Shown one piece after another: positions 4,619-17,183 of a stretch of 64,000 nucleotides of DNA. The stretch comes from an uncultured Gammaproteobacteria bacterium (lineage in GTDB: Bacteria > Patescibacteriota > Patescibacteriia > Magasanikbacterales > UBA922). The position numbers were made by a program, and so were the translations under genes. The notes under the pieces are model-generated. The model ran no database searches, had not been told where the DNA came from, and worked only from the letters and a program-made list of their open reading frames with translations. The stretch is from the NCBI GenBank assembly GCA_964519725.1, contig CAZFKS010000001.1, forward strand, positions 119,270 to 183,269, written 5' to 3'. How positions within the stretch are numbered: position 1 is the stretch's first letter; every line of letters begins with the position of its first letter.

Positions 4619-4702
4619 AACGTGTACCTTATAACAAATAACTTATACCCGCCCCGACCTGTGAAAATTTACCGTGTAACCGGGAAATGGACGATTAGAC
4701 AG

Positions 4703-4731
4703 AGTATAACACAGCTGACGGGTTTTGTCAA
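4703..4731 (-). promoter_or_regulatory. sigma70-like promoter (TTGACA-17-TATACT) for the RRM gene, leaving an about 90-nt 5' UTR
   Basis: Minus strand reads ttgaca aaacccgtcagctgtgt tatact. Exact -35 hexamer, 17-nt spacer. Confidence 0.4.
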
Positions 4732-4762
4732 CCGCGCATGGATTCGGAAGAAATGGCTAAAA

Positions 4763-5236
4763 TTAGCCCATTTTACTGATTGTGTGAGTCAGAATTTTAC
4801 CCTCATCACCCAAAGTAAACTCGGCGTCAATTTTTTCCCCAGCTAAAACGCGCGGCAGCCAGATTGCATCATCGCGCCACATATTTTCGTAAGGGATTTC
4901 AGTGACCTTATACCAGACAGGCTGCATTTCACTGGTTTCAACCGGTGTACCTGTCCATTCTTCAGCAAAATAAGTAAACACCTGCTGATTCCAGTCTGGG
5001 TCAGGCGTGTAATTAATAGTTATCACCCCAACTTTGGTCAGGGTTAACACTTTAACCCCAATTTCCTCTTCTGCCTCACGAATGGCCGCCGCCTCTGGGG
5101 TCTCGCCAGGCTCGATTTTACCACCAACACCATTCCATTTCCCCATTCCAAAACTACGTTTCTTCATTCCCAAACATAATTCAGTGACACGGCCGTTGTC
5201 TTTTTTTACTAGAAATAACAGGGTGACTTGTTTCAT
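4763..5236 (-). CDS. NUDIX hydrolase (MutT-like)
   Basis: Nudix box GGKIEPGETPEAAAIREAEEEIGV. Confidence 0.85.
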   Translation of the reverse strand: MKQVTLLFLVKKDNGRVTELCLGMKKRSFGMGKWNGVGGKIEPGETPEAAAIREAEEEIGVKVLTLTKVGVITINYTPDPDWNQQVFTYFAEEWTGTPVETSEMQPVWYKVTEIPYENMWRDDAIWLPRVLAGEKIDAEFTLGDEGKILTHTISKMG

Positions 5237-5481
5237 ACAGTACCTTGAATTAAAGCTAATTTTTCAACTCGTGACAATTTTTTAATTTTTGCTTCAGCTT
5301 TTTGCGCCGTAGAACGCGTCCGATATTTTTTAAAATATTTTAATTCTACTGGCCGCCGCGAGCGGGTGTATTTGGCGCCACGATTACTCGAATTATGTTC
5401 CGCAATTCGGCGCTCAACATTAGTTGCAATCCCAGTGTAAAGAGTATTGTCTGCACACCGAGTGATGTACACAAAGTACAT
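5233..5481 (-). CDS. GIY-YIG nuclease-domain protein (UPF0213-like)
   Basis: MYFVYITRCADNTLYTGIATNVERRIAEHN is a classic GIY-YIG N-terminus. 82 aa. 4-bp overlap with the NUDIX gene. Confidence 0.8.
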   Translation of the reverse strand: MYFVYITRCADNTLYTGIATNVERRIAEHNSSNRGAKYTRSRRPVELKYFKKYRTRSTAQKAEAKIKKLSRVEKLALIQGTV

Positions 5482-5484
5482 ATT

Positions 5485-5973
5485 TTAGTTTAAACGAACA
5501 ATGCTAAAGTTAAGGTAGGTTGCGAAACAAACCCACAATAAATATGGGACAAGTAGATACGCCGCTTTACGCGATACACCCCAAAATAAAACAATATTCA
5601 AGGCAATCGCGAGCATTAGCATAATAATTTCGAGTAGTGCTAGCTCTGGACTGCGTAGGCCAAAGAAAATAACTGACCACAAACTATTTAAAACTAATTG
5701 GGCAGCGAACGCAATTAGAGCAAGACGCTTAGTCCGGCGTGACCAGGGCAAAATTGTCCACTGTTTCCAGACCAAATATAAACTAACCCCCATGAGCAGA
5801 TACAAAATTGTCCAGGTCGGTCCAAATAATCCTTCTGGCGGGACCAGAATTCCGGTATTCAAAGTGCGGTACCAGGTTGATAGTGAATCAGTTACAAAAA
5901 CTGCACCGAGCAGGCCAGCCAGTTGCGGGAGGGCAAGAGAAATCAAAAGTTTGGCAGGGTTCGTGAGTTTCAT
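5485..5973 (-). CDS. tspO: TspO/MBR family membrane protein
   Basis: 162 aa, 5 TM helices, Trp-rich (WYRTL, PPEGLFGPTWTILYLLMG, LWVCF) as in TspO. Confidence 0.7.
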   Translation of the reverse strand: MKLTNPAKLLISLALPQLAGLLGAVFVTDSLSTWYRTLNTGILVPPEGLFGPTWTILYLLMGVSLYLVWKQWTILPWSRRTKRLALIAFAAQLVLNSLWSVIFFGLRSPELALLEIIMLMLAIALNIVLFWGVSRKAAYLLVPYLLWVCFATYLNFSIVRLN

Positions 5974-6025
5974 AAGTATAGATTTAGGTGTAGTATATCA
6001 CTTACCTGACCAATTAACACTTACA

Positions 6026-6319
6026 ATGATACTCAATATGACTGACCCAAATTTAGCCGAAGCCTTAACCCAAAACCCCCTTTTGATTGATGTGCGTACC
6101 ACTGAAGAATTTGCCGAGGGTTCTGTGCCGGGCGCGATTAATATTCCATCACATTTAATTCCCTTGCGTTTGGCCGAAATTCCCAAAGACCGGCCAGTGG
6201 TAGTATTTTGCCAAAGCGGCAGTCGCAGCGGCCTGACCAAACAATTTTTACTCCGAGAAGGCCACACCAATTGCGTGAATGGCGGGGCAATGGCCAATGT
6301 TTTAAACGAACTCCAATAA
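6026..6319 (+). CDS. single-domain rhodanese (sulfurtransferase)
   Basis: LIDVRTTEEFAEGSVPGAINIP...VVVFCQSGSRS active-site loop. Start taken at internal ATG 6026 (MILNMTDPN); the upstream part of the table ORF overlaps tspO antisense. Confidence 0.85.
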   Translation: MILNMTDPNLAEALTQNPLLIDVRTTEEFAEGSVPGAINIPSHLIPLRLAEIPKDRPVVVFCQSGSRSGLTKQFLLREGHTNCVNGGAMANVLNELQ

Positions 6320-6586
6320 AACTTTGATTGTTTCGCCCTCAAAAATATCTTCGGCTTTACGCACGCCGGCTTTAACAGGTAACAAATATGCCCCTTCTTT
6401 GCTTGGGAAAATTGAGGTTTCCCAGGTGGTTTTGCCAATCGTGGCTTTGACGCGCACCGATCCCCAACCTTTTTTGGGGCGCGGCATGGCTTTAATTTTG
6501 GTCGTGGTTTTCTCATCAATGGTTACAAAATACCAAGCTCCGCTTTCGGCGGGGTATTTCCACAGTTTAGTGTTTAAAGTAAACAT
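6302..6586 (-). CDS. DUF1905 domain protein
   Basis: GSVRVKATIGKTTWETSIFPSKEGAYLLPVKAGVRKAEDIFEGETIKVLLE matches the DUF1905 pattern. 2-nt gap to the upstream DUF2075 gene. Confidence 0.55.
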   Translation of the reverse strand: MFTLNTKLWKYPAESGAWYFVTIDEKTTTKIKAMPRPKKGWGSVRVKATIGKTTWETSIFPSKEGAYLLPVKAGVRKAEDIFEGETIKVLLEFV

Positions 6587-6588
6587 AC

Positions 6589-8430
6589 TTAACCCACATG
6601 GTCTTTAAAATATTTTTCCGCTTCTTTATCCATAAAGTATACATAACAGCCTTTCATTCCGCGGGTCATGAGGGTGCGATAGGTATTTTTAATAATGGCA
6701 TTGGCTTTTTTAGTAGCTGCATCAGGGTCGATCTTGTGCAAAGTTTTAAAACCTTTAAGTGAGGTGTCAGTTTTGGCGCGGCCCTCTGGTACGCCAATTA
6801 CTTGGCCATTTCTCACAATTAAATCAGGACCAACAATTACGCCAATGTAATCAATTTCCAGGCCTTGGGCTGAATGAATGCAACCAACATCCTCCACTGA
6901 GGTTGGTGAAATAATCCAGGTATTGCGTTCACTATTTAAATTCCAGCGCATAGTAAAATTATGTTCTCGAATTTTAATATCCAGCAAATCTGGATTTTTC
7001 TCACTAATCCAATCCCAACACCGACCCGCTACAATCCGCGCTTTATTTCGTTCTTTATTTTTCTCGCGAATCAACTCTTGTAATTCTTGTGGTGAGTCAA
7101 CCACGCGAAAATCAAAGTCACCCGTTAATTGTGTGCCAGTATTTTTAATTTGCAAAGTATTGTCGAGCCAATCCAAAAAATTATCTGAGCCACCACACCG
7201 AAATTGAGAATTTAATTCTAAATAATGAATCCGCGCGCCGGCATTGGCCGCGCAGTGTTCAATTTCCACTTGACTACCAAAGTCATTCCAGGTCACTTTT
7301 TGGTCTTCATCTAAGAAAAATATAGAGCATTTGGCAGCCTGAATAATTTCGCGTACCTGATTACCGCCTTTTTTGCCATACATGCCAGTGCGTTCGTTCA
7401 GGCGGTGGGCTTCGTCTACAATCAAGGCTTCAAAAGTATTTGGCGCGATATTTTGGTAAGCACCAGAACCAGAAAAGAGTGCGCAAAATTCTTTAAAAGT
7501 CATTTTGTCCTTGAGCATGTGCTCATATACGGCGCGCGGCGCCGCGTTTTTGGTTACATATTGCGCGGCTTTCTGGGTACGGATTAGATTGATAAGTAAA
7601 TTAATCGCGACCACTGACTTCCCTGTCCCAGGCCCACCTTTAACAATTACCACCTGTTTATCTTTTGGTTTATTTACTAATTCCAAAATCGTTTCAAAAA
7701 CCACTTTTTGGTCATCAATCATGGTAAATTCTTCTTCGTTGTAAAGCGCGGCGGGCATTTGTTCGGCCACGCTGTGTGAGGGCTTAATCGCGCTTTGTTC
7801 AATTTTTTCTAAAATATCAGCAGCGCCAAATTGTAAGCGCTCGGCAATAAATTTTCTAAAAATATTTTCTTCACCTTTAAAAAATAAAGGTGCTTGATCC
7901 ACATATTCTTTATAAAAAATATTATCAATCACGCCATCCCGTTCATAATTGTGCAAATACACGCACGGCGTGACCACAATATTTTCCTGATGAATAACTT
8001 CAGTAAATCCGCGCAGTAAATTAGCATATACCAAAGCCTGATATGACGGATGAGCCACTTCCCTCTCAGTCGCACCCACAAAAGCTTTAATAACTCCGTC
8101 TTTTATAGTCATTTCAGCCGAGGTCCATTGCTTAAGCTCAATAATAACCACTTGATCTTTTTTCTCTTTATTTAGACCATACAAAATCACATCAATGCGT
8201 TTTCCTGTTGGCCGAACTTGATACTCAATCCCAATTTCCATATCACCCGGAATTTCTGGGGTATTCAAAACCTTACCCAGTGCTCCGAGCGATTGCTTCC
8301 ACGACTCCACTTCCCGTGCTCCACCGCCTCGGCCGAAATTCGCTTTCACCTTAGCCAAAACAATCGCCTCAATACGATTATTTTGTAGGTTCTCTAGAAA
8401 TTTAGTTTTGGTAGTGAGGTGGGAGATCAT
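6589..8430 (-). CDS. DUF2075-family (Schlafen-like) ATPase with an N-terminal nuclease-like domain
   Basis: Walker A VKGGPGTGKSV, Walker B LIVDEAHRL. N-terminal IDVILYG...VVIIELKQW resembles a restriction-endonuclease-like core. Last large gene of the hsd operon. Confidence 0.65.
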   Translation of the reverse strand: MISHLTTKTKFLENLQNNRIEAIVLAKVKANFGRGGGAREVESWKQSLGALGKVLNTPEIPGDMEIGIEYQVRPTGKRIDVILYGLNKEKKDQVVIIELKQWTSAEMTIKDGVIKAFVGATEREVAHPSYQALVYANLLRGFTEVIHQENIVVTPCVYLHNYERDGVIDNIFYKEYVDQAPLFFKGEENIFRKFIAERLQFGAADILEKIEQSAIKPSHSVAEQMPAALYNEEEFTMIDDQKVVFETILELVNKPKDKQVVIVKGGPGTGKSVVAINLLINLIRTQKAAQYVTKNAAPRAVYEHMLKDKMTFKEFCALFSGSGAYQNIAPNTFEALIVDEAHRLNERTGMYGKKGGNQVREIIQAAKCSIFFLDEDQKVTWNDFGSQVEIEHCAANAGARIHYLELNSQFRCGGSDNFLDWLDNTLQIKNTGTQLTGDFDFRVVDSPQELQELIREKNKERNKARIVAGRCWDWISEKNPDLLDIKIREHNFTMRWNLNSERNTWIISPTSVEDVGCIHSAQGLEIDYIGVIVGPDLIVRNGQVIGVPEGRAKTDTSLKGFKTLHKIDPDAATKKANAIIKNTYRTLMTRGMKGCYVYFMDKEAEKYFKDHVG

Positions 8431-8438
8431 TTTAAAAT

Positions 8439-8990
8439 TTACCTTGAAATAGTATCAAAATTTTGCAATTCTTTTCTTATATCAGCATACTTAGGCATGG
8501 CTCTAGCAACCAATTCCCAAAATTTCTTAGAATGATTTAATTCTTTTAAATGACATAGCTCATGCACGACAATATAATCCACCAAATAATCTGGCAAAAA
8601 CAAAATTTTATAATTAAAATTAAGATTCTTTTGTCCGGAACAACTCCCCCATTTAGTACTCTGTTGCTTAATACTAATGCGGTTATAAGAAAAATTATAC
8701 AATTCATTATAATGTACAACTCTTTCCTTAATTAATTTCCTAGCACGTTTAGCACAGGCATGATAATTTGTTTGTGGAAAATCCCTAGAGATTTCCTTCT
8801 TTTCTTTTTTTTGGAAAAACAAAATTTTAGACTTGATCCATTCGGCTTTTTCAGTGATGTATTTTTCCACCCCAGACAAATCAAATCCTTTTGGTACAAC
8901 CACTGAAACTCGAGCATCACAATTCACAACGATTCTTAGTCGCCGTGCTCGTTCACTTTCTTTAACCGAGTAAGCAATGCCGTGAGACAT
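8439..8990 (-). CDS. DUF45/YgjP (COG1451, WLM/M48-like) zinc metallohydrolase
   Basis: HExxH motif VVHELCHLKELNH. This family is a well-known neighbour of type I hsdR genes. Confidence 0.75.
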   Translation of the reverse strand: MSHGIAYSVKESERARRLRIVVNCDARVSVVVPKGFDLSGVEKYITEKAEWIKSKILFFQKKEKKEISRDFPQTNYHACAKRARKLIKERVVHYNELYNFSYNRISIKQQSTKWGSCSGQKNLNFNYKILFLPDYLVDYIVVHELCHLKELNHSKKFWELVARAMPKYADIRKELQNFDTISR

Positions 8991-8991
8991 G

Positions 8992-11931
8992 TTAAAACTT
9001 TTTAATGATTACATCGACTAAGCGATTGAGTAATTGATTTCGTTCAATGTCTTTGGTTAGGTTACCAAAATCTTTCCAAATTAATTCCTGCAAGGTTTGC
9101 TTGGTATTTTTAACAAACACATCTCGTTTTGATGACTCTTGCCAACCAGCATCAAGATCAGCTTCAACTCGAATCCGAACTTCTTTTACAAATTTTTGAA
9201 TCTCCTCGCCCTTTGTATCTTTTACAAACTCCTGTGAGATAACATACAGAGCATATTCTTTTAGATCAAGGCCTAATTCCTTAGCCTCTTCAGCTTTGGT
9301 TTTAATATCACTCATCAATTCCTCATAGCGACGAATTCTTTCGGCCAAATCAATCTGGTTTTGTTCAAATTGACGACGAATTGAAGTGAGACGCTCACTA
9401 AATTTAACAAACACGGGATTTTCATCCAAATTGATTGAAATTTCTTGTTTAAGCATCTTCTCCAAATTGAGCGCTTTTTCTTCTTCATCCATTCCCTTAA
9501 GTCGTTCAAGTGTATACAAATCATTCACACGCAACTCACGGAAATTTTTAGTAATTCCCTCGTAATCAATGATATTACTTTTTTGAATCAGAGCGCGAAC
9601 TTTTTCGCCATACTCTTCAAGAAGATACTTATCATCTTCACTCCGAAATTCCTTCAAAAAGGCCAAATAAAAACCGGTCACCCATTCAAATGGTCTAATT
9701 GATGGTTTCAAAAATGGATCCGGAGACAGAAACTCAAACAAACTCTTTAATTTTAAGTATTTCTCCACAAAGTATTTTTGCTTGTCCTGATTGTCAATAA
9801 AAATTTTCAAACAACGGCGTAAATTATCCATTGATGGGTCCTCAATATTTACACCAGTAAATATTTTCATGACATCATTCAACACATCGGTAAACAGATC
9901 TTTGATTCTGGCAATATCAATCATGGCTGAATCAATTATCTCTTCGTCAAAATCGAGCGCATCGTACAAATTTCGGGTAATTCCGTAATAATCAATAATC
10001 TTCCCGGCTTCTTTGTTTTTATATACCCGGTTAGTACGGGCAATGGCTTGCAAAAGATTATGGTCACGTAAAGGTTTATCCAAATACATGACTTGTTCAA
10101 TTGGTGCATCAAAACCAGTGAGCAACATGTCGCAAACCAATAAGAATTTAAGCGGTGACTTTGGGTCTTTGAATTGCTCAATAATCTGTTCACGTTCCCG
10201 TTTACTGGTGTTATAGACTTTCAAATCATCGGCATCACTATTTGGATCTCCAGGTGAATACACCACTGCCGACCATTCAGCTGGAACTAATTTATCCAGC
10301 AGTGTTTTATAAGCAGCCACGGCTTCACGATCATAGGCCACAATCTGAGCCTTAAAGCCGTTTGGTTCCACATACAGCTTGTAATGTTCCACAATATCTC
10401 GCGCCACTGCTTCCATCCGCTTGGGTAATTTTACCAAAGCTGCTTTTTTACCATATTTCTTTACCAATTCAGTTTTTTGTTTATCCGATAAATCACCAGC
10501 AATCTCTTCAAACTGTTCATCCAACTTAGTTTCATCAATCGAAAATTTAGACAGCCGCGCTTCATAGGTCATGGGAATAGTCGCGCCATCTTCAATTGCC
10601 TGTTGAATTGAATAGTAGTCTAAATAACGTTGACCTTCCCCTTCATAATTGCGGAAGGTATTGGTGTGCGCTTTATCCACAGGCGTACCAGTAAAGCCAA
10701 AGAAAAAGGCTTTCTTGAACGCATTACGCATGTTAATCCCCGATACCCCCTCGTCGCCTCGGTGTGCCTCATCGGACAGAACAATCACATTTTCATCTAA
10801 ATTTTCTACTTTGTCACCCAATTCAGAAAACTTTTGAATAGTGGTAATAAAAATCCCTTTTTCTGGTGACTGAATTTTTTCTTCTAAATCCTTGCGAGAA
10901 GTCACGCGGATAATATTCTTTCCACCGGCATTGATGAAGGTTTCAAAAATTTGGTCATCCAAATCTACCCGGTCAACCAAAATAAATACCTTAGGATTGG
11001 CTAATTCTTTATTAAAGCGCAATTTCCAGGCCGTAAAGTACATGGTCAAGGTCTTTCCTGACCCTTGGGTATGCCAAATTAAACCTTGGTGTTTTTCTTT
11101 TTTAACTACCCGGTCAACGATCTTATTAGTGGCCCGCATTTGCTGGTAACGGGCAATTTTCTTTACCACTCGCTCTTTTTCTTTTTCAAACAGAATAAAG
11201 TTTTGAATAATATCCAAGAAGTTATTCTTTGAAAGTAAAGAAATAAGGGTAACATCTAAACTAGCATCGTCTACATAATGACCTTTCCCTATCATAGACT
11301 TGGCTAGGTCATCATCACGCCACTGTAAAAAGTACTGCTTTGGTGCACCAGTCGCTCCGTAGACAGTTTTAAGGCCATCAGTGGCAATATTAAAGCAGTT
11401 AGGGATAAATAATTTACGAGCCACTTTTTCGTAACGCTTAATCTGATCAATCCCATTCTCAAAACTAACACCTTCCGAAGCAGTCGGACTTTTAGCTTCA
11501 ATATCTACTAATGGAATACCATTTAAAAAAATCAAAATATCCGGCCGAATATTTTCCGTATCACCTTCAAAATAAAATTGGTTAGTAACCACAAACTGAT
11601 TATTTTCAGGATTATCAAAATCAACTAATTTGTAATCTTGAAAATCACCAGTACTTGGATTTCGCAAATTAATCCCTTCACGCAAAGCTTTTAAAAATTC
11701 CTCATTAGAGTCAATCTTTTTAACCTCGCGAATAACATTACTAACCTCACTCACAGTTACCCCTGGATTAAGCCCCGCAATCGCCCGCTCCAAAAACGGA
11801 ACAATAATATACTCAACCTCAAGGTCGCGTAACTTAGCAAATTCCTCTGGCTTAATATACTCAAAACCAAGCTTATCCTTAATAAACTTAATAATGTAAT
11901 TTTCAATTGTGACTTGTTCGTTGAATTTCAT
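8992..11931 (-). CDS. hsdR: type I restriction enzyme R subunit
   Basis: 979 aa. N-terminal nuclease core (RPDILIF...DIEAKSP), helicase motif I HTQGSGKTLTM, DEAH box SDEAHR, motif VI QAIARTNR. Confidence 0.9.
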   Translation of the reverse strand: MKFNEQVTIENYIIKFIKDKLGFEYIKPEEFAKLRDLEVEYIIVPFLERAIAGLNPGVTVSEVSNVIREVKKIDSNEEFLKALREGINLRNPSTGDFQDYKLVDFDNPENNQFVVTNQFYFEGDTENIRPDILIFLNGIPLVDIEAKSPTASEGVSFENGIDQIKRYEKVARKLFIPNCFNIATDGLKTVYGATGAPKQYFLQWRDDDLAKSMIGKGHYVDDASLDVTLISLLSKNNFLDIIQNFILFEKEKERVVKKIARYQQMRATNKIVDRVVKKEKHQGLIWHTQGSGKTLTMYFTAWKLRFNKELANPKVFILVDRVDLDDQIFETFINAGGKNIIRVTSRKDLEEKIQSPEKGIFITTIQKFSELGDKVENLDENVIVLSDEAHRGDEGVSGINMRNAFKKAFFFGFTGTPVDKAHTNTFRNYEGEGQRYLDYYSIQQAIEDGATIPMTYEARLSKFSIDETKLDEQFEEIAGDLSDKQKTELVKKYGKKAALVKLPKRMEAVARDIVEHYKLYVEPNGFKAQIVAYDREAVAAYKTLLDKLVPAEWSAVVYSPGDPNSDADDLKVYNTSKREREQIIEQFKDPKSPLKFLLVCDMLLTGFDAPIEQVMYLDKPLRDHNLLQAIARTNRVYKNKEAGKIIDYYGITRNLYDALDFDEEIIDSAMIDIARIKDLFTDVLNDVMKIFTGVNIEDPSMDNLRRCLKIFIDNQDKQKYFVEKYLKLKSLFEFLSPDPFLKPSIRPFEWVTGFYLAFLKEFRSEDDKYLLEEYGEKVRALIQKSNIIDYEGITKNFRELRVNDLYTLERLKGMDEEEKALNLEKMLKQEISINLDENPVFVKFSERLTSIRRQFEQNQIDLAERIRRYEELMSDIKTKAEEAKELGLDLKEYALYVISQEFVKDTKGEEIQKFVKEVRIRVEADLDAGWQESSKRDVFVKNTKQTLQELIWKDFGNLTKDIERNQLLNRLVDVIIKKF

Positions 11932-11938
11932 ATATTTA

Positions 11939-12991
11939 TTAAAATGAAATTTCGCTTAGATTAATTTCTTCAATGGGCTTAATTTTTTCCTCGAGATTCT
12001 TAATTTCTAATTCGACATCAGTCTCCTCCCCTTCTTTTTGAATCGTTGCTCTGATAATTGCCCAAGTTTCAGGGTCAAAAAGTTCAGGTTTTGGTAATAA
12101 ATGCTCTCTATAAAAAGAGTTTGTATCTTGATCGTTAATTACCCAACGTACTTGGCTGTTTTCTAACAATGCATTTGCAAGTCCTTTAATTTGGGAGTCA
12201 TTAAAACTACTATACTTTGAAAGCTTACTCACTAAATCATGCGTAGTTAAAAAATTTGGACTATTGATCAATCCTTGCACTAAACTATCTTTTTCTTGCT
12301 CAACTCTCAGCTGAATTTTAATATCATGCTCAGAAAAAAATCTAGTGAGACTTTTATAAAAAAATATTTCATTCTCTGGATGAACTTTTTTCCACTCTTC
12401 CACTAAATAATCCTTAGCAAGATTTTCATCAATGGGATGCGAGTAATCTCCGTCCTTACTCAAAAGGATAAATTCTCCTTCTCCTTCGACTTCAGCCAAC
12501 AGTGCTTCCCAATTAATCTCATCACCGTAACTCCTATCCTTTTTACCTGGTGGTCGCCCCAGCCGATGTCTTTTTATAGATTGAGGTAAATATGCATCTG
12601 ATTCAATAATTTTACTCTCAGAAATAAGATCTTGAATTACCTTATCTGCCTTTAAAGTATGTTTTTGGATATCATTCCACAACTTTTTACTCAATTGTGC
12701 TTTTAGCTTGTCTAGAATATTTTGAGCACGCTTTATGTCAGTATATTCGTCATAGTGTTTACAGAATGGAGGCATTGTTAAAGTTGGTTTTGATTTAGCA
12801 AATTCCCCATAAGCCACTTTAAGTCTTACTTCACGATTTCGTTTAACCTCATCACAGACTTGGGAGGTAAGGAAAAGCTTAATTTCTCCAGACTTAATAA
12901 AATCAACTAATTTTGCAAGTTGAGTCAAATCTTCATCGTGAAAATCGTAAAAGTTGAGAAAAATATTTGAATCTATAAATAGTAATTTCAT
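11939..12991 (-). CDS. hypothetical protein with N-terminal PIN-like predicted nuclease fold, embedded between hsdS and hsdR
   Basis: LLFIDSNIF (acidic residue on beta-1), QVCDEV helix, LLSKDGD are spaced as the conserved PIN acidic positions. C-terminal about 170 aa unassigned. 4-bp overlap with hsdS. Confidence 0.35.
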   Translation of the reverse strand: MKLLFIDSNIFLNFYDFHDEDLTQLAKLVDFIKSGEIKLFLTSQVCDEVKRNREVRLKVAYGEFAKSKPTLTMPPFCKHYDEYTDIKRAQNILDKLKAQLSKKLWNDIQKHTLKADKVIQDLISESKIIESDAYLPQSIKRHRLGRPPGKKDRSYGDEINWEALLAEVEGEGEFILLSKDGDYSHPIDENLAKDYLVEEWKKVHPENEIFFYKSLTRFFSEHDIKIQLRVEQEKDSLVQGLINSPNFLTTHDLVSKLSKYSSFNDSQIKGLANALLENSQVRWVINDQDTNSFYREHLLPKPELFDPETWAIIRATIQKEGEETDVELEIKNLEEKIKPIEEINLSEISF

Positions 12992-14226
12992 ACTTGTTTT
13001 TTTCCACTCAGCAAATCTTGCATCAAGCCATTTTTGAGTAAAGTAAGTTTTGTTTTTAATTTTTTATTTACCGAAATTTTTTCATCAACAGCGGAAATAA
13101 TTTCTGCAATTTTTTCCTGCTCTTTCTTTTGTGGCAGGACAATTAAAAGTGGATTAAGTTTTTCCAAATTAATATTTTTTTGAGCGGATTGGGTAGAAAT
13201 ACTGTTAAGATACTCTTTTTGAGTTCTTAAATAATATTCCAAAAAAATCGGATTAATTTTTTCTTTACAAGAAATGCCCACCAAGCTATCAGGAAAGCAC
13301 GAATCAAACTCTAATATTCCAGTATCGCCAATGTTCGCGGCAATTGTAATAACGATAGTGCCTTTTTTAAACAATTTACTCACAGATAGACCTTTTTCGT
13401 TAAGTGTTTGGGTGTACTTTTTTATTCTTCCGTCTGAGCTGATAACATCACCAGTCTGTATAAATGGAATTTCCCCTCCATAAAATTCTGGTGCATTTCT
13501 CGGTCTATGAGAAAACTTACCCCGCTCCACAAGTGCAACGTCAGAAAGTCTTACGATATTCCACTCTTCCGGAATTTGTCCGATTTCTGTTTCCTTAAAT
13601 TTAGTATGCCCAATCCCATTTGTAAAAAGCTGCATCATTAGCCCGTGCTTGAGTTTTTCCGCAGATTTAATCACTTCATGCGTTTTAGTAATATCTTCAT
13701 CCACCGTCCTCAAAATCCCAGCAATCTTTTGTTGTTCTTTGATTGGGGGTAGTAAAACTTCTATACTTTCAACTTGGCTGGAGCTTATATTTTTTTGAGC
13801 CGCACCAATAAAATACTTCTCAAGTTTTGATATAAAATCTTTGTACAAAAATACTTGAAATGTAAAATCAGGATCTAAATCCTTATCTTTAAAGACAACA
13901 CGTCCTACGCGTTGATTTAAAATTGCTGGAAGATATTTCTTGTCAATTCGCGCTACTTTACCAAGTTCGCCAGTCATGCCCATCAAGATATCATTTTCTC
14001 TTAAGTGTACAGATTCATTGTTAGCATACCCATCTTCAGATATATACACAAAATCATTAGCCACAAAGTCTCCTTTGCCAACATTACCAATACGCACAAG
14101 CGGAATACCATCATTTACATAATTTGACGCGTTAAACGCATTGCCTCCTTGAAGCTTTATATGCCTTCCAATCGGAAGTAATTCCCACCCCTTAGGGATA
14201 TTTTGCTGTATCATGTTGGTTTTCAT
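12988..14226 (-). CDS. hsdS: type I restriction-modification specificity subunit (two target-recognition domains)
   Basis: 412 aa. Repeated TRD plus conserved spacer helices (LLPPIKEQQKIAGIL... and VLPQKKEQEKIAEII...) typical of HsdS. Confidence 0.85.
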   Translation of the reverse strand: MKTNMIQQNIPKGWELLPIGRHIKLQGGNAFNASNYVNDGIPLVRIGNVGKGDFVANDFVYISEDGYANNESVHLRENDILMGMTGELGKVARIDKKYLPAILNQRVGRVVFKDKDLDPDFTFQVFLYKDFISKLEKYFIGAAQKNISSSQVESIEVLLPPIKEQQKIAGILRTVDEDITKTHEVIKSAEKLKHGLMMQLFTNGIGHTKFKETEIGQIPEEWNIVRLSDVALVERGKFSHRPRNAPEFYGGEIPFIQTGDVISSDGRIKKYTQTLNEKGLSVSKLFKKGTIVITIAANIGDTGILEFDSCFPDSLVGISCKEKINPIFLEYYLRTQKEYLNSISTQSAQKNINLEKLNPLLIVLPQKKEQEKIAEIISAVDEKISVNKKLKTKLTLLKNGLMQDLLSGKKQV

Positions 14227-15128
14227 ACTATGTTATTTGAAACCCATTTAATTGAACCAGCAATAGAAGCGTTCAAAACTTGTAGACAAATTTTTGCAGT
14301 ATGAATATCTGGTGAAAATTTTGAAATACTTTGTTCGTAAGGATGGATATAATTGCGAAAATCTCGCAGAGCGTGTCCAAATTTCTTTACATCCAATCCA
14401 ATCACGCCGAGTTCGTGAGCCACGTCAATAAGACCAGCAAGCTTCCAATCAGGTAACGGTAAAACTTTTCCAGTTTTGTCTTTCGGACTTGCATTAGCTG
14501 ATTGAAATTTTTGAGGATGTTTTACTGCGATACCAAATAAAATTCCTTCCAGCGTACTGCCAGCCATAATAACAGAAGATAAAGGCGACTTGTATTGTAG
14601 ACATTGGCGAGATTCTAGAATACGCTCTTTTAATATACTCTCTATTGCCGCATCAAGACCGAGCTTGGAAATGTCATTTTCATCAAAATCTTTTTTTAAA
14701 AACTCTTCTTCAGAATCAATTGATGTATTTTTTGTATCTATTATTGGGCCGACAGACTCCTTTAAATACTTTAGAATAGGGTCACGGCCTTGAAAAGCAA
14801 CACTCATGTTCTCCATAGACAAAATATCGTTCATCGCTTTTGCAGCCATCTCCAATTTAGCTCTATCTGCCTTGTACTCCCTTATATCAACAAGCCTCAA
14901 AATCACTTTTTCAAGGTCATTCAATGTTAATTGTTTGAGCAGTTCAAGTACCCACCATTTTCGAGTACTACCATCATGGGTCACATTTATATTTATATTT
15001 TGAAAAAAACGAGTTAAATAACCTGAAGATCTATATTCCGGGTACTTTTGCGCCACATCTCCACAAATAAAATCAGCAAGGGCATCAAGTGTCGCGGGAT
15101 CTAATTTATTTTTTAAAAATACCGCCAT
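14223..15128 (-). CDS. hypothetical protein, HEPN-like (Rx6H motif) Abi/DUF4145-type candidate embedded between hsdM and hsdS
   Basis: C-terminal HALRDFRNYIHPYEQ contains an R-x6-H motif in a helical context. The position equals that of known HEPN/Abi insertions in type I R-M operons. Otherwise no strong motif. Confidence 0.3.
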   Translation of the reverse strand: MAVFLKNKLDPATLDALADFICGDVAQKYPEYRSSGYLTRFFQNININVTHDGSTRKWWVLELLKQLTLNDLEKVILRLVDIREYKADRAKLEMAAKAMNDILSMENMSVAFQGRDPILKYLKESVGPIIDTKNTSIDSEEEFLKKDFDENDISKLGLDAAIESILKERILESRQCLQYKSPLSSVIMAGSTLEGILFGIAVKHPQKFQSANASPKDKTGKVLPLPDWKLAGLIDVAHELGVIGLDVKKFGHALRDFRNYIHPYEQSISKFSPDIHTAKICLQVLNASIAGSIKWVSNNIV

Positions 15129-15129
15129 A

Positions 15130-16821
15130 CTAATATTTCAATTCCTTGAGATATTCGTCCACCTTTTTATCAATAATATCCCGCTCTTTTTCAATTTCCT
15201 TTACCTGAGCCCACACGGTTTTTACATCAATGTTTTCTTCTTCATCAGCATTTTCCACATAGCGACGAACATTGAGGTTGTATTCGTTTTCTGCTAATTC
15301 TTTGGTGTCAATAACGCGGGCGTATTTTTCGATATCACGGTAATTTTCAAAGGCGGAGACAATTTTTTCAATATCAACCTTACGCAAACGGTTTTGATTT
15401 TTTCCTTCTTCGTAATCTTGTTCGGCGTCAACAATGAGGATTTTATTTTTGTGATCGACTGGCTTATTTTTGTTAAAAATTACAATTGCAGCCGGAATAC
15501 CTGTTCCGTAAAAAAGTTTAGCTGGGAGTGCGATGATGGCTTCAATTAAGTCATTTTTAATGAGTTGTTCACGAATACGGCCTTCGGCCCCGCCACGAAA
15601 AAGCACGCCATGAGGAAGTACAATGCCAGCGCGACCATTTTCATTCATTGATTTAACTAAATGCATGACAAAGGCATAGTCCGCATTTTTGGCTGGCGGC
15701 ATTTCATATCCAGCGGCTCGTTTATAACTATCTGATTTAAATTTTTCGTAAGCGTAGTCCTTAATCGAGTACGGTGGATTACTAATGCAGATGTCGAATG
15801 TTTTGAGTGTACCATCTGGGTTGAGGAACTTCGGGTCAGCCAGTGTGTCCCCGCGTTGAATGTCCGCACTATCCAGTCCATGCAAGAACATGTTGATTTT
15901 GGCAATGGCGTAGGTGCCAATATTAATTTCTTGTCCGTAGAGGTAAAGTGAACGGGCCTTTTTTTCACCAGCTTCATTCTTTAAATGGTGATATGCTTCC
16001 AACAAAAAACCACCTGAACCAGCGGCCATGTCGTAAATATGGTCTTTCTCATGTGGCTTTAAAATATTAATAATTACACGTTCAACTTCGCGCGGTGTGT
16101 AGAAACTACCACCTTTTTTACCACCATCAGCAGCAAATTGTTGGATGAGGTATTCATAAGCATCACCTAAAAGGTCGGTACTAATGTAGTTGTCGCCAAA
16201 ATTATGCTTGGAAAAATGATTGATTAGTTTTTGCAAAATTTCATTGGGAAATTTGTCTTTATTGGCAAAATCCAGATCGTCAAAAATACGGTCCAGTTTT
16301 GGACTATTGGCAGTAGTGAGGTCATCAAAAATAGTATTGAGTTTTTGGCCAATACCTTCGGCTTGCTGTTGAATGACTTCCCAACGACAATGACTCGGGA
16401 CTTGAAAACGATGGTTATAATCAGCCCGAGCCACTTCTTCATCATGATATTCTTCTAGGACTTTTTTATATTCTTCGTCCCACACATCACTAATGCGCTT
16501 GTAAAAAAGAAGACCGAAAATATATTTTTTGTAATCAGCACTATCAATGCGGTCGCGCAAAATATCCGCACTGCTCCACAAAAATTGCTTGAGTTGAGTG
16601 AGGTTCATTTTTCCCTCGTCGTTGGTCAGCGAGCTGCCCAAGTCTTTGACAATACTTTTGTCATTGGCGATTCGTTCAATATCCTCGGGCTTATATTTAC
16701 GGTCTTTGCGAGGACCAACCCGTAAAGGGGTTATGAGCCCTTTTTTCTCCCAGTTGCGGAGAGTGTCTTGATGAATGCCAAAAATGGTTGAGACTTCGCT
16801 AATACTGAGTAGATTGGCCAT
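15130..16821 (-). CDS. hsdM: type I restriction-modification N6-adenine DNA methyltransferase M subunit with N-terminal MerR-type HTH extension
   Basis: NPPY motif ISNPPYS, SAM motif DMAAGSGGFL, HsdM N-domain (LWSSADILR). First about 50 aa LSISEVSTIFGIHQDTLRNWEKKGLITP is an HTH_17/MerR-like helix-turn-helix. Confidence 0.9.
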   Translation of the reverse strand: MANLLSISEVSTIFGIHQDTLRNWEKKGLITPLRVGPRKDRKYKPEDIERIANDKSIVKDLGSSLTNDEGKMNLTQLKQFLWSSADILRDRIDSADYKKYIFGLLFYKRISDVWDEEYKKVLEEYHDEEVARADYNHRFQVPSHCRWEVIQQQAEGIGQKLNTIFDDLTTANSPKLDRIFDDLDFANKDKFPNEILQKLINHFSKHNFGDNYISTDLLGDAYEYLIQQFAADGGKKGGSFYTPREVERVIINILKPHEKDHIYDMAAGSGGFLLEAYHHLKNEAGEKKARSLYLYGQEINIGTYAIAKINMFLHGLDSADIQRGDTLADPKFLNPDGTLKTFDICISNPPYSIKDYAYEKFKSDSYKRAAGYEMPPAKNADYAFVMHLVKSMNENGRAGIVLPHGVLFRGGAEGRIREQLIKNDLIEAIIALPAKLFYGTGIPAAIVIFNKNKPVDHKNKILIVDAEQDYEEGKNQNRLRKVDIEKIVSAFENYRDIEKYARVIDTKELAENEYNLNVRRYVENADEEENIDVKTVWAQVKEIEKERDIIDKKVDEYLKELKY

Positions 16822-16936
16822 AATTTTGTAGGTTTATGGCCCTAGGATAACACGATATTATAAAAGAATCAAGTTTGTATAAATTTTCATAGGATTTCAT
16901 AGGTTATTGCTACCCCTATCCAAACCATATATAATA

Positions 16937-16966
16937 AAAAACCGTCTTTTAAGCGGTTTTTTGGGA
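16937..16966. terminator. bidirectional-looking hairpin terminator between the DUF1295 gene and the hsd operon promoter region
   Basis: aaaaaaccg-tcttttaag-cggtttttt. 5-bp GC-containing stem flanked by an A-run and a T-run. Confidence 0.4.
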
Positions 16967-17183
16967 TAATTTGCGGTTGTACTCTTTTACCATTTTTCTT
17001 TGGTCCCTGTTGGCCCTACGGGCCGCTTCCTCAAATAATTTAATCTTCTCCAATTCCGAGGCAGTTCTAAAAAACTCCCCAGCCGAGGAATACTGTTGAG
17101 TAGATTTTTTATGATTAAAATTTTGTATATTAGTTGCTTTTATTCACTGTAATAACAACTATTAAGTTGCACTTTTGGGAAAT

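What the first reader, a model, noticed from the sequence alone, without database searches (positions are those of the whole stretch)
6589..8990. hsdR is followed by DUF45 metallohydrolase, a DUF2075 ATPase with an N-terminal nuclease-like domain, and DUF1905
COG1451/DUF45 (HExxH, here VVHELCHL) is a known hsdR companion. Here it is additionally followed by a 613-aa DUF2075 (Schlafen-like) P-loop ATPase. Its first about 110 residues look like a restriction-endonuclease-like domain (IDVILYG...VVIIELKQW). A small DUF1905 protein follows. This three-gene tail is not a standard hsd feature.
Basis: partly seen in the sequence, partly recalled or inferred. Interest (0 to 1): 0.5.

Follow-up and report, generated by a model that had tools for sequence, protein, structure and literature searches.

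The report
Defence island, not an hsd tail
The three genes after hsdR are not one unit: one is the usual last gene of the restriction operon, one is a separate nuclease-helicase of a mobile, probably anti-phage family that has lost its usual partner gene, and one is an ordinary backbone gene that marks the edge of a variable defence hotspot.

Summary
The domain calls are correct. DUF45/YgjP lies at 8439-8990, a 613-aa DUF2075 (SLFN group 3 helicase) protein at 6589-8430, and DUF1905 at 6302-6586, all on the minus strand after hsdR.

The 613-aa protein has an N-terminal PD-(D/E)xK nuclease, shown by invariant E69, D80, E98-x-K100 and a restriction-endonuclease fold. The three genes have three different histories:
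- **DUF45** shares the low GC3 of the hsd cassette. It sits beside hsdR in 7 of 8 sampled plasmid loci.
- **The nuclease-helicase** belongs to a large mobile family. In 80 loci from other genomes it is never near hsd or DUF1905. In 69 of 80 it follows a small MazG-like pyrophosphohydrolase, which this window lacks. Its neighbours are typical defence-island genes. It has the Nhi/Nhi-like architecture. It matches the DUF2075 protein of Millman et al.'s candidate 'Pyrophosphatase' system (SG192), which was tested and gave no defence.
- **DUF1905** is a conserved backbone gene. In four related contigs it keeps the same downstream synteny, while different defence cargo sits upstream of it.

This is an ordinary composite defence island. 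The instance is a new, MazG-less member of a known kind.

The parts
15130..16821 (-). hsdM with an N-terminal MerR-type HTH; first gene of the low-GC type I R-M cassette
   Evidence: PF02384 E 1e-107, HsdM_N, and MerR_1 at aa 6-65. PADLOC MTase_I E 1e-137.
14223..15128 (-). 301-aa ORF of unknown function embedded between hsdM and hsdS
   Evidence: No Pfam, NCBIfam or PADLOC hit. GC3 0.272, like the cassette.
12988..14226 (-). hsdS specificity subunit
   Evidence: PF01420, two stretches, E 3e-45.
11939..12991 (-). PIN_12 domain protein (350 aa) embedded between hsdS and hsdR
   Evidence: PF16289 E 2e-21. The C-terminus matches PADLOC PDC-S34, E 1e-13.
8992..11931 (-). hsdR restriction subunit
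   Evidence: TIGR00348 E 1e-167. HSDR_N, SWI2_SNF2 and T1RH-like_C.
8439..8990 (-). DUF45/YgjP-like HExxH metallohydrolase; terminal gene of the hsd cassette
   Evidence: PF01863 E 7e-45. GC3 0.277, like the cassette. Starts 1 nt after the hsdR stop. Homologues lie beside hsdR in 7 of 8 plasmid loci.
6589..8430 (-). 613-aa nuclease-helicase (Nhi-like architecture), a member of the MazG-associated DUF2075 family; here without MazG
   Evidence: PF09848 E 1e-96. More than 7,900 homologues. 44% identity, E 6e-106, to the DUF2075 protein of Millman SG192. Full-length model has pLDDT 84; its best PDB match is SLFN11, followed by SF1B helicases.
7726..8430 (-). N-terminal PD-(D/E)xK nuclease domain (aa 1-235). 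Catalytic candidates: E69 (8224-8226), D80 (8191-8193), E98 (8137-8139), K100 (8131-8133).
6628..7659 (-). DUF2075 / SLFN group 3 SF1-type helicase domain (aa 258-601). Walker A GGPGTGKS (7615-7638), DEAH (7405-7416).
   Evidence: for the domain; invariant motifs; Foldseek matches.
6302..6586 (-). DUF1905 protein (94 aa); conserved backbone gene that bounds the variable hotspot, not cargo
   Evidence: PF08922 E 2e-24. Homologues at 69-78% identity. Same synteny with rhodanese, TspO and following genes in L088-L091, with different genes upstream. GC3 0.474.
6021..6319 (+). Rhodanese gene, convergent with DUF1905, 3' ends overlapping by 18 nt; backbone flank
   Evidence: PF00581. A 93-aa rhodanese overlaps DUF1905 in the same way in L088-L091.

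Best explanation
The region is a composite defence island sitting in a lineage-specific hotspot just upstream of a conserved DUF1905 gene. It holds two independent cargo modules.

**Module 1** is a low-GC type I R-M cassette: hsdM, a 301-aa unknown ORF, hsdS, a PIN_12 gene, hsdR and DUF45. DUF45 is its customary last gene.

**Module 2** is a single-gene nuclease-helicase, made of an N-terminal PD-(D/E)xK nuclease and a DUF2075/Schlafen-type SF1 helicase. It belongs to a large, horizontally mobile family that normally forms a two-gene operon with a MazG-like nucleotide pyrophosphohydrolase. That partner is missing here.

DUF1905 is not part of either module. It is the backbone gene at the edge of the hotspot.

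Inferred mechanism for the 613-aa protein, by analogy with Nhi and Nhi-like:
1. The helicase motor loads on foreign (phage or plasmid) DNA or on its replication intermediates.
2. The fused nuclease degrades that DNA.

The family's neighbours, and published work on escape from Nhi-like, suggest it may target modified DNA. If so, it would complement the R-M system beside it. Tight spacing and the absence of a terminator make co-transcription with hsd likely. That would be shared expression, not a shared mechanism.

Shown here: the domain composition, the catalytic motifs, the fold, the family's gene neighbourhoods, and the synteny of relatives. Inferred: anti-phage function, the target, and co-transcription.
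For: **Mosaic origin.** GC3 is 0.25-0.38 for hsdM through DUF45, 0.376 for the 613-aa gene, and 0.474 for DUF1905 (other backbone genes 0.31-0.55) (profile).

**DUF45 belongs with hsdR.** It is beside hsdR in 7 of 8 plasmid loci. In most it closes the hsd cluster; in Salinibacter a methyltransferase gene follows it. It is never followed by DUF2075.

**The nuclease-helicase family.**
- More than 7,900 homologues, full length at 51-55% identity, in several phyla. It also occurs on archaeal plasmids and in one phage record.
- In 80 genome loci there is no hsd or DUF1905.
- A MazG-like gene (PF12643) lies immediately upstream in 69 of 80 loci, often with a 4-nt overlap. The two closest homologues, P0004 and P0007, have it too.
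- The window has no MazG-like sequence.
- Downstream neighbours are defence-type genes: HNH_2 in 7 loci, PLDc_2/ResIII in 4 (with DUF3427 in 2 of them), plus RhuM, Mrr_cat, AIPR, MrcB_N, GmrSD_N, AbiH and nSTAND3. Shedu lies next to P0007.

**Architecture and fold.** PADLOC gives PDC-S41 at 6e-17 and Nhi and AbiO at about 3e-11.

**Literature.**
- Nhi is a PD-(D/E)XK nuclease plus a DUF2075 helicase (bioRxiv 10.1101/776245).
- Nhi-like has the same architecture and was verified as a defence gene (10.1101/2022.05.11.491447).
- Phages escape Nhi-like by losing a phage DNA methylase (10.1101/2022.08.27.505566).
- The window protein aligns with verified Nhi-like SG141 across the nuclease motifs and Walker A/B (23% identity, E 2e-7).

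**Hotspot.** In L088-L091, DUF1905 and the synteny downstream of it (rhodanese and TspO in all four; further genes in most) match the window. The genes upstream differ:
- a DUF2075 fragment plus a GajA/AriA-like ATPase and an HD protein;
- an HTH-SocA/Panacea pair;
- T5orf172 + Shedu + DUF2779.

All four contigs end inside this variable stretch.
Against: - No member of this exact family has been shown to defend. The one tested relative, SG192 (MazG + DUF2075 from Bacillus firmus), gave no protection, and SG193 could not be cloned (Table S2 of 10.1101/2022.05.11.491447).
- Similarity to validated Nhi-like is remote. The PADLOC Nhi and AbiO matches cover only the first helicase lobe.
- About 40% of homologues carry a LexA-like S24 peptidase domain, which would also fit a DNA-damage or repair role.
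- The 613-aa gene's composition is intermediate, so the data do not show whether it arrived separately from the hsd cassette.
- Co-transcription is inferred only from spacing and from the absence of terminator-like sites.
- The left edge of the hotspot was not confirmed in relatives.
Confidence: 0.78

Rival explanations
1. One reading: DUF45, the DUF2075 nuclease-helicase and DUF1905 are accessory subunits or modulators of this type I R-M system, an extended hsd operon.
For: All eight genes are on one strand with gaps of 1-8 nt, and no terminator-like site lies between them on the minus strand. DUF45 really is an hsdR companion.
Against: None of 80 homologue loci has hsdR/M/S or DUF1905 within 10 kb. 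None of the 7 hsdR-DUF45 plasmid loci is followed by DUF2075 or DUF1905. DUF1905 is found in related contigs behind unrelated cargo and without R-M genes. There is a composition step at the DUF45/613-aa junction.
Confidence: 0.04
2. Partner swap: here the DUF45 metallohydrolase functionally replaces the missing MazG-like pyrophosphohydrolase as the upstream partner of the nuclease-helicase. DUF45 would then serve both hsdR and the DUF2075 protein.
For: DUF45 occupies exactly the position MazG holds in 69 of 80 loci: immediately upstream, same strand, 8-nt gap. Both are small predicted hydrolases. From my own recollection, not verified here, E. coli YgjP has been annotated as a weak UTP pyrophosphatase.
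Against: Only 1 of 80 homologue loci has any DUF45 nearby, and that one is on the other strand. DUF45's position is fully explained by its link to hsdR. Other MazG-less members exist without DUF45. The two proteins have different folds and chemistry.
Confidence: 0.05
3. The DUF2075 nuclease-helicase is a DNA-repair or replication-stress enzyme rather than an immune gene, and its position next to hsd is coincidental.
For: 31 of 80 homologues carry a C-terminal LexA-like S24 domain with conserved AAG, GESM and Lys motifs, which suggests RecA-dependent activation. MazG-type enzymes clean the nucleotide pool. The only tested member gave no phage defence. The structure resembles Dna2 and SLFN11, which act at replication forks.
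Against: Its neighbourhood is variable and defence-rich. Its distribution is patchy across bacteria, archaea, plasmids and a phage record. In this lineage it sits in a hotspot with Shedu, Gabija-like and TA cargo. DNA-damage sensing also occurs in defence systems, so the S24 fusion does not distinguish the two readings.
Confidence: 0.12

Closest known systems
Candidate 'Pyrophosphatase' system of Millman et al. 2022 (constructs SG192, Bacillus firmus LK28, and SG193, B. thuringiensis): MazG-like pyrophosphatase + DUF2075 protein
   Same: Same protein family. The window protein is 44% identical (E 6e-106) to the first 399 residues of the SG192 DUF2075 protein, including the nuclease motifs and Walker A/B. 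It is 25% identical to SG193 (E 6e-21). The two-gene form is the norm in 69 of 80 loci.
   Different: The window lacks the MazG-like gene altogether. SG192 gave no defence in the published screen and SG193 failed to clone, so the family has no demonstrated function.
Nhi-like (Millman et al. 2022, SG141, Bacillus cereus FSL H8-0482), a verified single-gene anti-phage protein
   Same: Same architecture and length (611 vs 613 aa): an N-terminal PD-(D/E)xK nuclease followed by a DUF2075 SF1 helicase. The E..D..ExK motifs, Walker A and DEAx align. It is a single polypeptide. Escape by loss of a phage methylase fits the modification-dependent-restriction neighbours seen around the window's family.
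   Different: Only 23% identity over 317 residues (E 2e-7 pairwise). It is a different sub-family, not MazG-associated, and nothing here tests function.
Nhi (SERP2475, Staphylococcus epidermidis; Bari et al.) and AbiO
   Same: Nuclease plus DUF2075 helicase. The PADLOC Nhi and AbiO models match residues 230-411 at E about 3e-11. The described mechanism is nuclease plus bipolar helicase acting on phage DNA.
   Different: The matches cover only the first helicase lobe, and the N-terminal domains are not detectably similar by these models. Nhi is a Firmicute family.
Eukaryotic Schlafen group 3 proteins (SLFN11, SLFN5, SLFN13)
   Same: The helicase domain belongs to Pfam PF09848 (E 1e-96). The best PDB match of the full model is SLFN11 (Foldseek E 6e-11). 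Both fuse a nuclease to this helicase and act in virus restriction or replication stress.
   Different: The N-terminal nuclease is a PD-(D/E)xK fold, not the Schlafen core/AlbA tRNA endonuclease. It is a prokaryotic mobile gene.
hsdR-DUF45 (YgjP-like / 'SprT family zinc-dependent metalloprotease') pairing in type I R-M loci
   Same: DUF45 is directly after hsdR or convergent with it in 7 of 8 sampled plasmid loci. Here it starts 1 nt after the hsdR stop and shares the cassette's GC3.
   Different: Nothing notable. The role of DUF45 in type I R-M is still unknown.

Membership tests
Nhi / Nhi-like nuclease-helicase defence proteins | N-terminal PD-(D/E)xK nuclease domain with intact catalytic residues | tested here: met
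Nhi / Nhi-like nuclease-helicase defence proteins | C-terminal DUF2075 (PF09848) SF1-type helicase with Walker A and B | tested here: met
   PF09848 E 1e-96. GGPGTGKS and DEAH are invariant. SF1B helicases are among the top Foldseek hits.
Nhi / Nhi-like nuclease-helicase defence proteins | Sequence membership: significant match to a validated member or its model over the full length | tested here: inconclusive
   SG141 Nhi-like: 23% identity over 317 aa, pairwise E 2e-7. PADLOC Nhi 2.5e-11 and AbiO 2.8e-11 cover residues 230-411 only. The best PADLOC model is the candidate PDC-S41, 5.8e-17.
Nhi / Nhi-like nuclease-helicase defence proteins | Protects cells against phage | not testable with these tools
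   Needs experiment. The nearest tested relative (SG192) showed no defence in the published screen.
MazG-associated DUF2075 two-gene module (Millman candidate 'Pyrophosphatase' system) | DUF2075 nuclease-helicase of this orthologous family | tested here: met
   44% identity, E 6e-106, to SG192. 46-55% identity over the full length to homologues.
MazG-associated DUF2075 two-gene module (Millman candidate 'Pyrophosphatase' system) | MazG-like (PF12643) gene immediately upstream on the same strand | tested here: not met
   Present in 69 of 80 loci. tblastn finds none anywhere in the 64-kb window (best E 3). The upstream gene here is DUF45, 8 nt away.
Type I R-M operon components | Recurrent adjacency to hsdR in unrelated genomes | tested here: met
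   This row is for DUF45 only: 7 of 8 sampled plasmid loci.
Type I R-M operon components | Recurrent adjacency to hsdR in unrelated genomes (the 613-aa protein and DUF1905) | tested here: not met
   None of 80 loci of the 613-aa family has hsdR/M/S within 10 kb. The DUF1905 loci L088-L091 have no R-M genes.
Schlafen group 3 helicase domain family (Pfam PF09848) | Score above the Pfam gathering threshold over the whole model | tested here: met
   324.8 bits against a cut-off of 24, model positions 1-354 of 354.

The most novel reading that the evidence does not exclude
The MazG-associated PD-(D/E)xK-DUF2075 family could be a distinct and still unvalidated immune system aimed at modified nucleotides or modified DNA. 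The MazG partner would hydrolyse unusual dNTPs, and the nuclease-helicase would destroy DNA that carries them. The LexA-like S24 fusions would act as a DNA-damage-triggered switch. In this window the orphan nuclease-helicase would be co-expressed with a type I R-M system as a second line of defence against phages that evade restriction by modifying their DNA, possibly using DUF45 in place of MazG.
Probability: 0.12. Interest if true: 0.55.

Novelty: new member of a known kind. Interest (0 to 1): 0.3.

Why it matters
The finding itself is ordinary. It is a type I R-M cassette with its usual DUF45 gene, sitting next to an independent Nhi-like-type nuclease-helicase in a defence hotspot. This removes a suspected new hsd accessory module.

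Two by-products may be useful:
- The 613-aa protein belongs to a very large, cross-domain family (bacteria, archaea, plasmids) with a strict MazG partner and frequent LexA-like fusions. Its function is unproven, because the one published test was negative. It is a reasonable candidate for renewed testing with phages that carry modified DNA.
- The junction upstream of DUF1905 and rhodanese is a recognisable integration hotspot in this uncultured lineage. It could be used to harvest further defence cargo.

Tried and rejected
- Exact-sequence look-ups of the 613-aa protein (window sequence and P0001) found no contig on record, so the source genome's own record could not be used.
- A profile search of the PDB by sequence found nothing. 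Only fold comparison worked.
- A fold search with the full-length model was dominated by the helicase. A separate N-terminal model was needed.
- Literature searches for MazG+Nhi, MazG+Schlafen, DUF45+type I restriction, COG1451 and YgjP gave nothing usable. The DUF45-hsdR link was therefore tested directly on plasmid records.
- The promoter scan was at chance level (35 sites found against 33 expected). The one promoter-like site near the 613-aa start overlaps its ATG, so I make no claim of a separate promoter.
- No tRNA or Rfam element lies near the island, so there is no evidence of tRNA-targeted integration.
- I considered that the hsd cassette had been inserted between MazG and the DUF2075 gene. 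I rejected this because no MazG-like sequence exists upstream of hsdM or anywhere else in the window.
- I considered DUF1905 as a common accessory of variable defence cargo, because it abuts the last cargo gene within 6 nt or less in all relatives. I rejected this as the main reading because of its backbone-like composition, its high conservation, and its fixed overlap with the rhodanese gene.
Full report
**What is there.** All genes of interest are on the minus strand and tightly packed. In transcription order they are:

| Gene | Coordinates | Evidence |
|---|---|---|
| hsdM, with an N-terminal MerR HTH | 15130-16821 | |
| 301-aa ORF, no detectable family | 14223-15128 | |
| hsdS | 12988-14226 | |
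| PIN_12 protein | 11939-12991 | |
| hsdR | 8992-11931 | TIGR00348, E 1e-167 |
| DUF45/YgjP-like HExxH protein | 8439-8990 | PF01863, E 7e-45 |
| 613-aa protein | 6589-8430 | PF09848 DUF2075 / SLFN group 3 helicase, E 1e-96 over residues 258-601 |
| DUF1905 protein | 6302-6586 | PF08922, E 2e-24 |

DUF1905 overlaps a convergent rhodanese gene at its 3' end. Note that DUF1905 lies just outside the coordinates given in the finding.

**The N-terminal domain.** Pfam, NCBIfam and a PDB sequence search give nothing for residues 1-240.
- In an alignment of 25 full-length homologues at 51-55% identity, these are invariant: E69, D80, E98-L-K100-Q-W, a later HP-YQ motif, Walker A GGPGTGKS and DEAH.
- The full-length model (pLDDT 84) matches SLFN11 best, then SF1B helicases: nsp13, Dna2, RecD2, Dda and Upf1.

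The protein is therefore a fused PD-(D/E)xK nuclease and SF1-type helicase, and both active sites look intact.

**Do the three genes travel together? No.** I fetched 80 loci from other genomes that encode full-length homologues at 46-53% identity. They come from Patescibacteria, Bacteroidota, Proteobacteria, Verrucomicrobia, Nitrospira and others. I searched every ORF within 10 kb with the window's HsdR, HsdM, HsdS, PIN, 301-aa, DUF45 and DUF1905 proteins.
- There were no hits to hsd or DUF1905.
- There was one DUF45 hit, on the opposite strand 2.8 kb away.
- Clustering of neighbours showed one conserved partner: a MazG-like pyrophosphohydrolase of about 115 aa (PF12643). It lies immediately upstream on the same strand in 69 of 80 loci, often overlapping by 4 nt.
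- The two closest database homologues also have it.
- The window has no MazG-like sequence anywhere.
- Downstream neighbours of the family are typical defence-island genes: HNH_2 endonucleases in 7 loci, PLD-ResIII in 4 (with DUF3427 in 2 of them), and RhuM, Mrr, AIPR, MrcB_N, GmrSD, AbiH and a STAND NTPase.
- Upstream neighbours include Fic and RadC.
- Shedu flanks one of the closest homologues.
- The family also occurs on archaeal and bacterial plasmids and in one Microcystis phage record.
- The N-terminal domain profile finds 2,518 cluster representatives. In all 150 listed it begins at or near the protein's N-terminus.

**DUF45.** Its GC3 (0.277) matches the hsd cassette (0.25-0.38), not the 613-aa gene (0.376) or DUF1905 (0.474). 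It starts 1 nt after the hsdR stop. In eight plasmid loci sampled from the best DUF45 matches, seven have it directly after hsdR or convergent with it. In most it closes the hsd cluster; in Salinibacter a methyltransferase gene follows it. None is followed by a DUF2075 gene. DUF45 is simply the last gene of the R-M cassette.

**DUF1905.** Its best homologues are 69-78% identical, well above the 55% maximum for the 613-aa protein. Four contigs carrying such homologues share the window's downstream synteny. All four have the 17-18-nt overlap with rhodanese, then TspO. Most continue with GIY-YIG, exonuclease VII, DUF3298, an RRM protein and a UvrD/PDDEXK helicase. Upstream of DUF1905 each contig carries different cargo:
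- L088: a DUF2075 C-terminal fragment (63% identical to the window protein), followed by a GajA/AriA-like OLD-family ATPase and an HD protein.
- L089: an HTH-SocA/Panacea pair.
- L090 and L091: a helicase, T5orf172, Shedu SduA (E 1e-120) and DUF2779.

None of the four has R-M genes, and all four contigs end inside this variable stretch. DUF1905 is thus a backbone gene that bounds a defence hotspot. It is not cargo.

**Relation to known systems.**
- The architecture is that of Nhi (Bari et al.) and of the verified 'Nhi-like' gene of Millman et al..
- Table S2 of that preprint also lists a candidate two-gene system named 'Pyrophosphatase'. SG192 (Bacillus firmus; 98-aa pyrophosphatase + 643-aa DUF2075) was scored 'x', meaning no defence observed. 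SG193 was scored 'Cloning failed'.
- The window protein is 44% identical (E 6e-106) to the SG192 DUF2075 protein over the 399 residues available. It is 25% identical to SG193.
- It is 23% identical (E 2e-7) to verified Nhi-like SG141, with the nuclease and helicase motifs aligned.
- PADLOC gives only weak or partial matches: PDC-S41 at 6e-17, Nhi and AbiO at about 3e-11.

So the gene belongs to a family that has already been noticed as a defence candidate but has not been validated. It is a remote relative of a validated one.

**Mechanism (inferred).** By analogy with Nhi and Nhi-like, the helicase would translocate on foreign DNA or its replication intermediates, and the fused nuclease would cut. 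Two observations suggest a preference for modified DNA:
- phages escape Nhi-like by losing a DNA methylase;
- the window's family is repeatedly adjacent to enzymes resembling modification-dependent restriction enzymes.

A MazG partner could act on modified dNTPs. None of this is shown. In about 40% of homologues a C-terminal LexA-like S24 domain, with conserved AAG, GESM and Lys motifs, is fused to the protein. That points to control by DNA damage or ssDNA-RecA, and it keeps a repair-type role open.

In the window, the 8-nt gap and the lack of terminator-like sites suggest read-through from hsd. The promoter scan is at chance level.

**Verdict.**
- The interpretation as a three-gene hsd tail is not supported. 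The region is a composite defence island in a lineage-specific hotspot.
- The 613-aa gene is a MazG-less member of a known, unvalidated nuclease-helicase family.
- Interest is modest.

Noticed in passing
window 14223-15128 (-) and 11939-12991 (-); hsdM 15130-16821 (-): The hsd operon carries two embedded extra genes. One is a 301-aa ORF with no Pfam, NCBIfam or PADLOC match. The other is a 350-aa PIN_12 protein whose C-terminus matches the PADLOC candidate PDC-S34 (E 1e-13). HsdM has an N-terminal MerR-type HTH fusion (aa 6-65).
   Followed up: partly
L007, L013, L019, L061 and 27 other loci of L001-L080 (e.g. L007:10001-12433): About 40% of homologues of the 613-aa protein are roughly 800 aa long, with a C-terminal Peptidase_S24 (LexA/UmuD-like) domain. 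It has a conserved AAG (a possible self-cleavage site), a GESM serine motif and a conserved lysine. 7 of the 11 MazG-less loci are of this fused form.
   Followed up: partly
L002:9651-9998 and the equivalent position in 69 of 80 loci: A MazG-like pyrophosphohydrolase of about 115 aa (PF12643) is the near-obligate upstream partner of this nuclease-helicase family, often with a 4-nt overlap. It corresponds to the untested or negative 'Pyrophosphatase' candidate system (SG192/SG193) in Millman et al. 2022, Table S2.
   Followed up: yes
L006:12014-13018, L011:7935-8939, L012:12033-13037; L020:11868-15011, L003:2302-4455: There are recurrent downstream neighbours of the family: a 334-aa HNH_2 endonuclease (7 loci) and a PLD-ResIII-helicase protein (4 loci; DUF3427 detected in 2, including L020). 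The latter is the McaZI-type enzyme that Lutz et al. 2019 noted next to DUF2075 genes. This hints at a link to modification-dependent restriction.
   Followed up: partly
L088:1-3161, L089:1-1578, L090:1-6109, L091:1-5082 (upstream of DUF1905): The position upstream of DUF1905 is a variable defence hotspot in related genomes. Its cargo includes a Gabija/PARIS-like OLD ATPase with an HD protein, an HTH-SocA/Panacea pair, and Shedu with T5orf172 and DUF2779. All four contigs break inside it. In every case the last cargo gene ends within 6 nt of the DUF1905 start.
   Followed up: partly
L092 (Microcystis phage Mwe-JY31, PP438423.1) 4657-6863; L093 (Methanosphaera plasmid pNP174) 5001-6878: The family occurs at 45-48% identity in a 22-kb record named as a cyanophage, with a small gene immediately upstream. 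It also occurs on archaeal plasmids (Methanosphaera, Halalkalicoccus).
   Followed up: no
window 6589-8430 (-), residues C412, C471, C517, H519, C595: Several Cys and His residues in the helicase half are invariant across 25 homologues. They may form a metal-binding site. The model has low confidence around residues 413-416 and 501-504.
   Followed up: no
window 16822-17183: The 362-nt AT-rich spacer upstream of hsdM contains two terminator-like hairpins (about 17074-17091 and about 16935-16960). It marks a sharp GC step from 0.34 to 0.54, which is the probable left edge of the inserted cassette.
   Followed up: no
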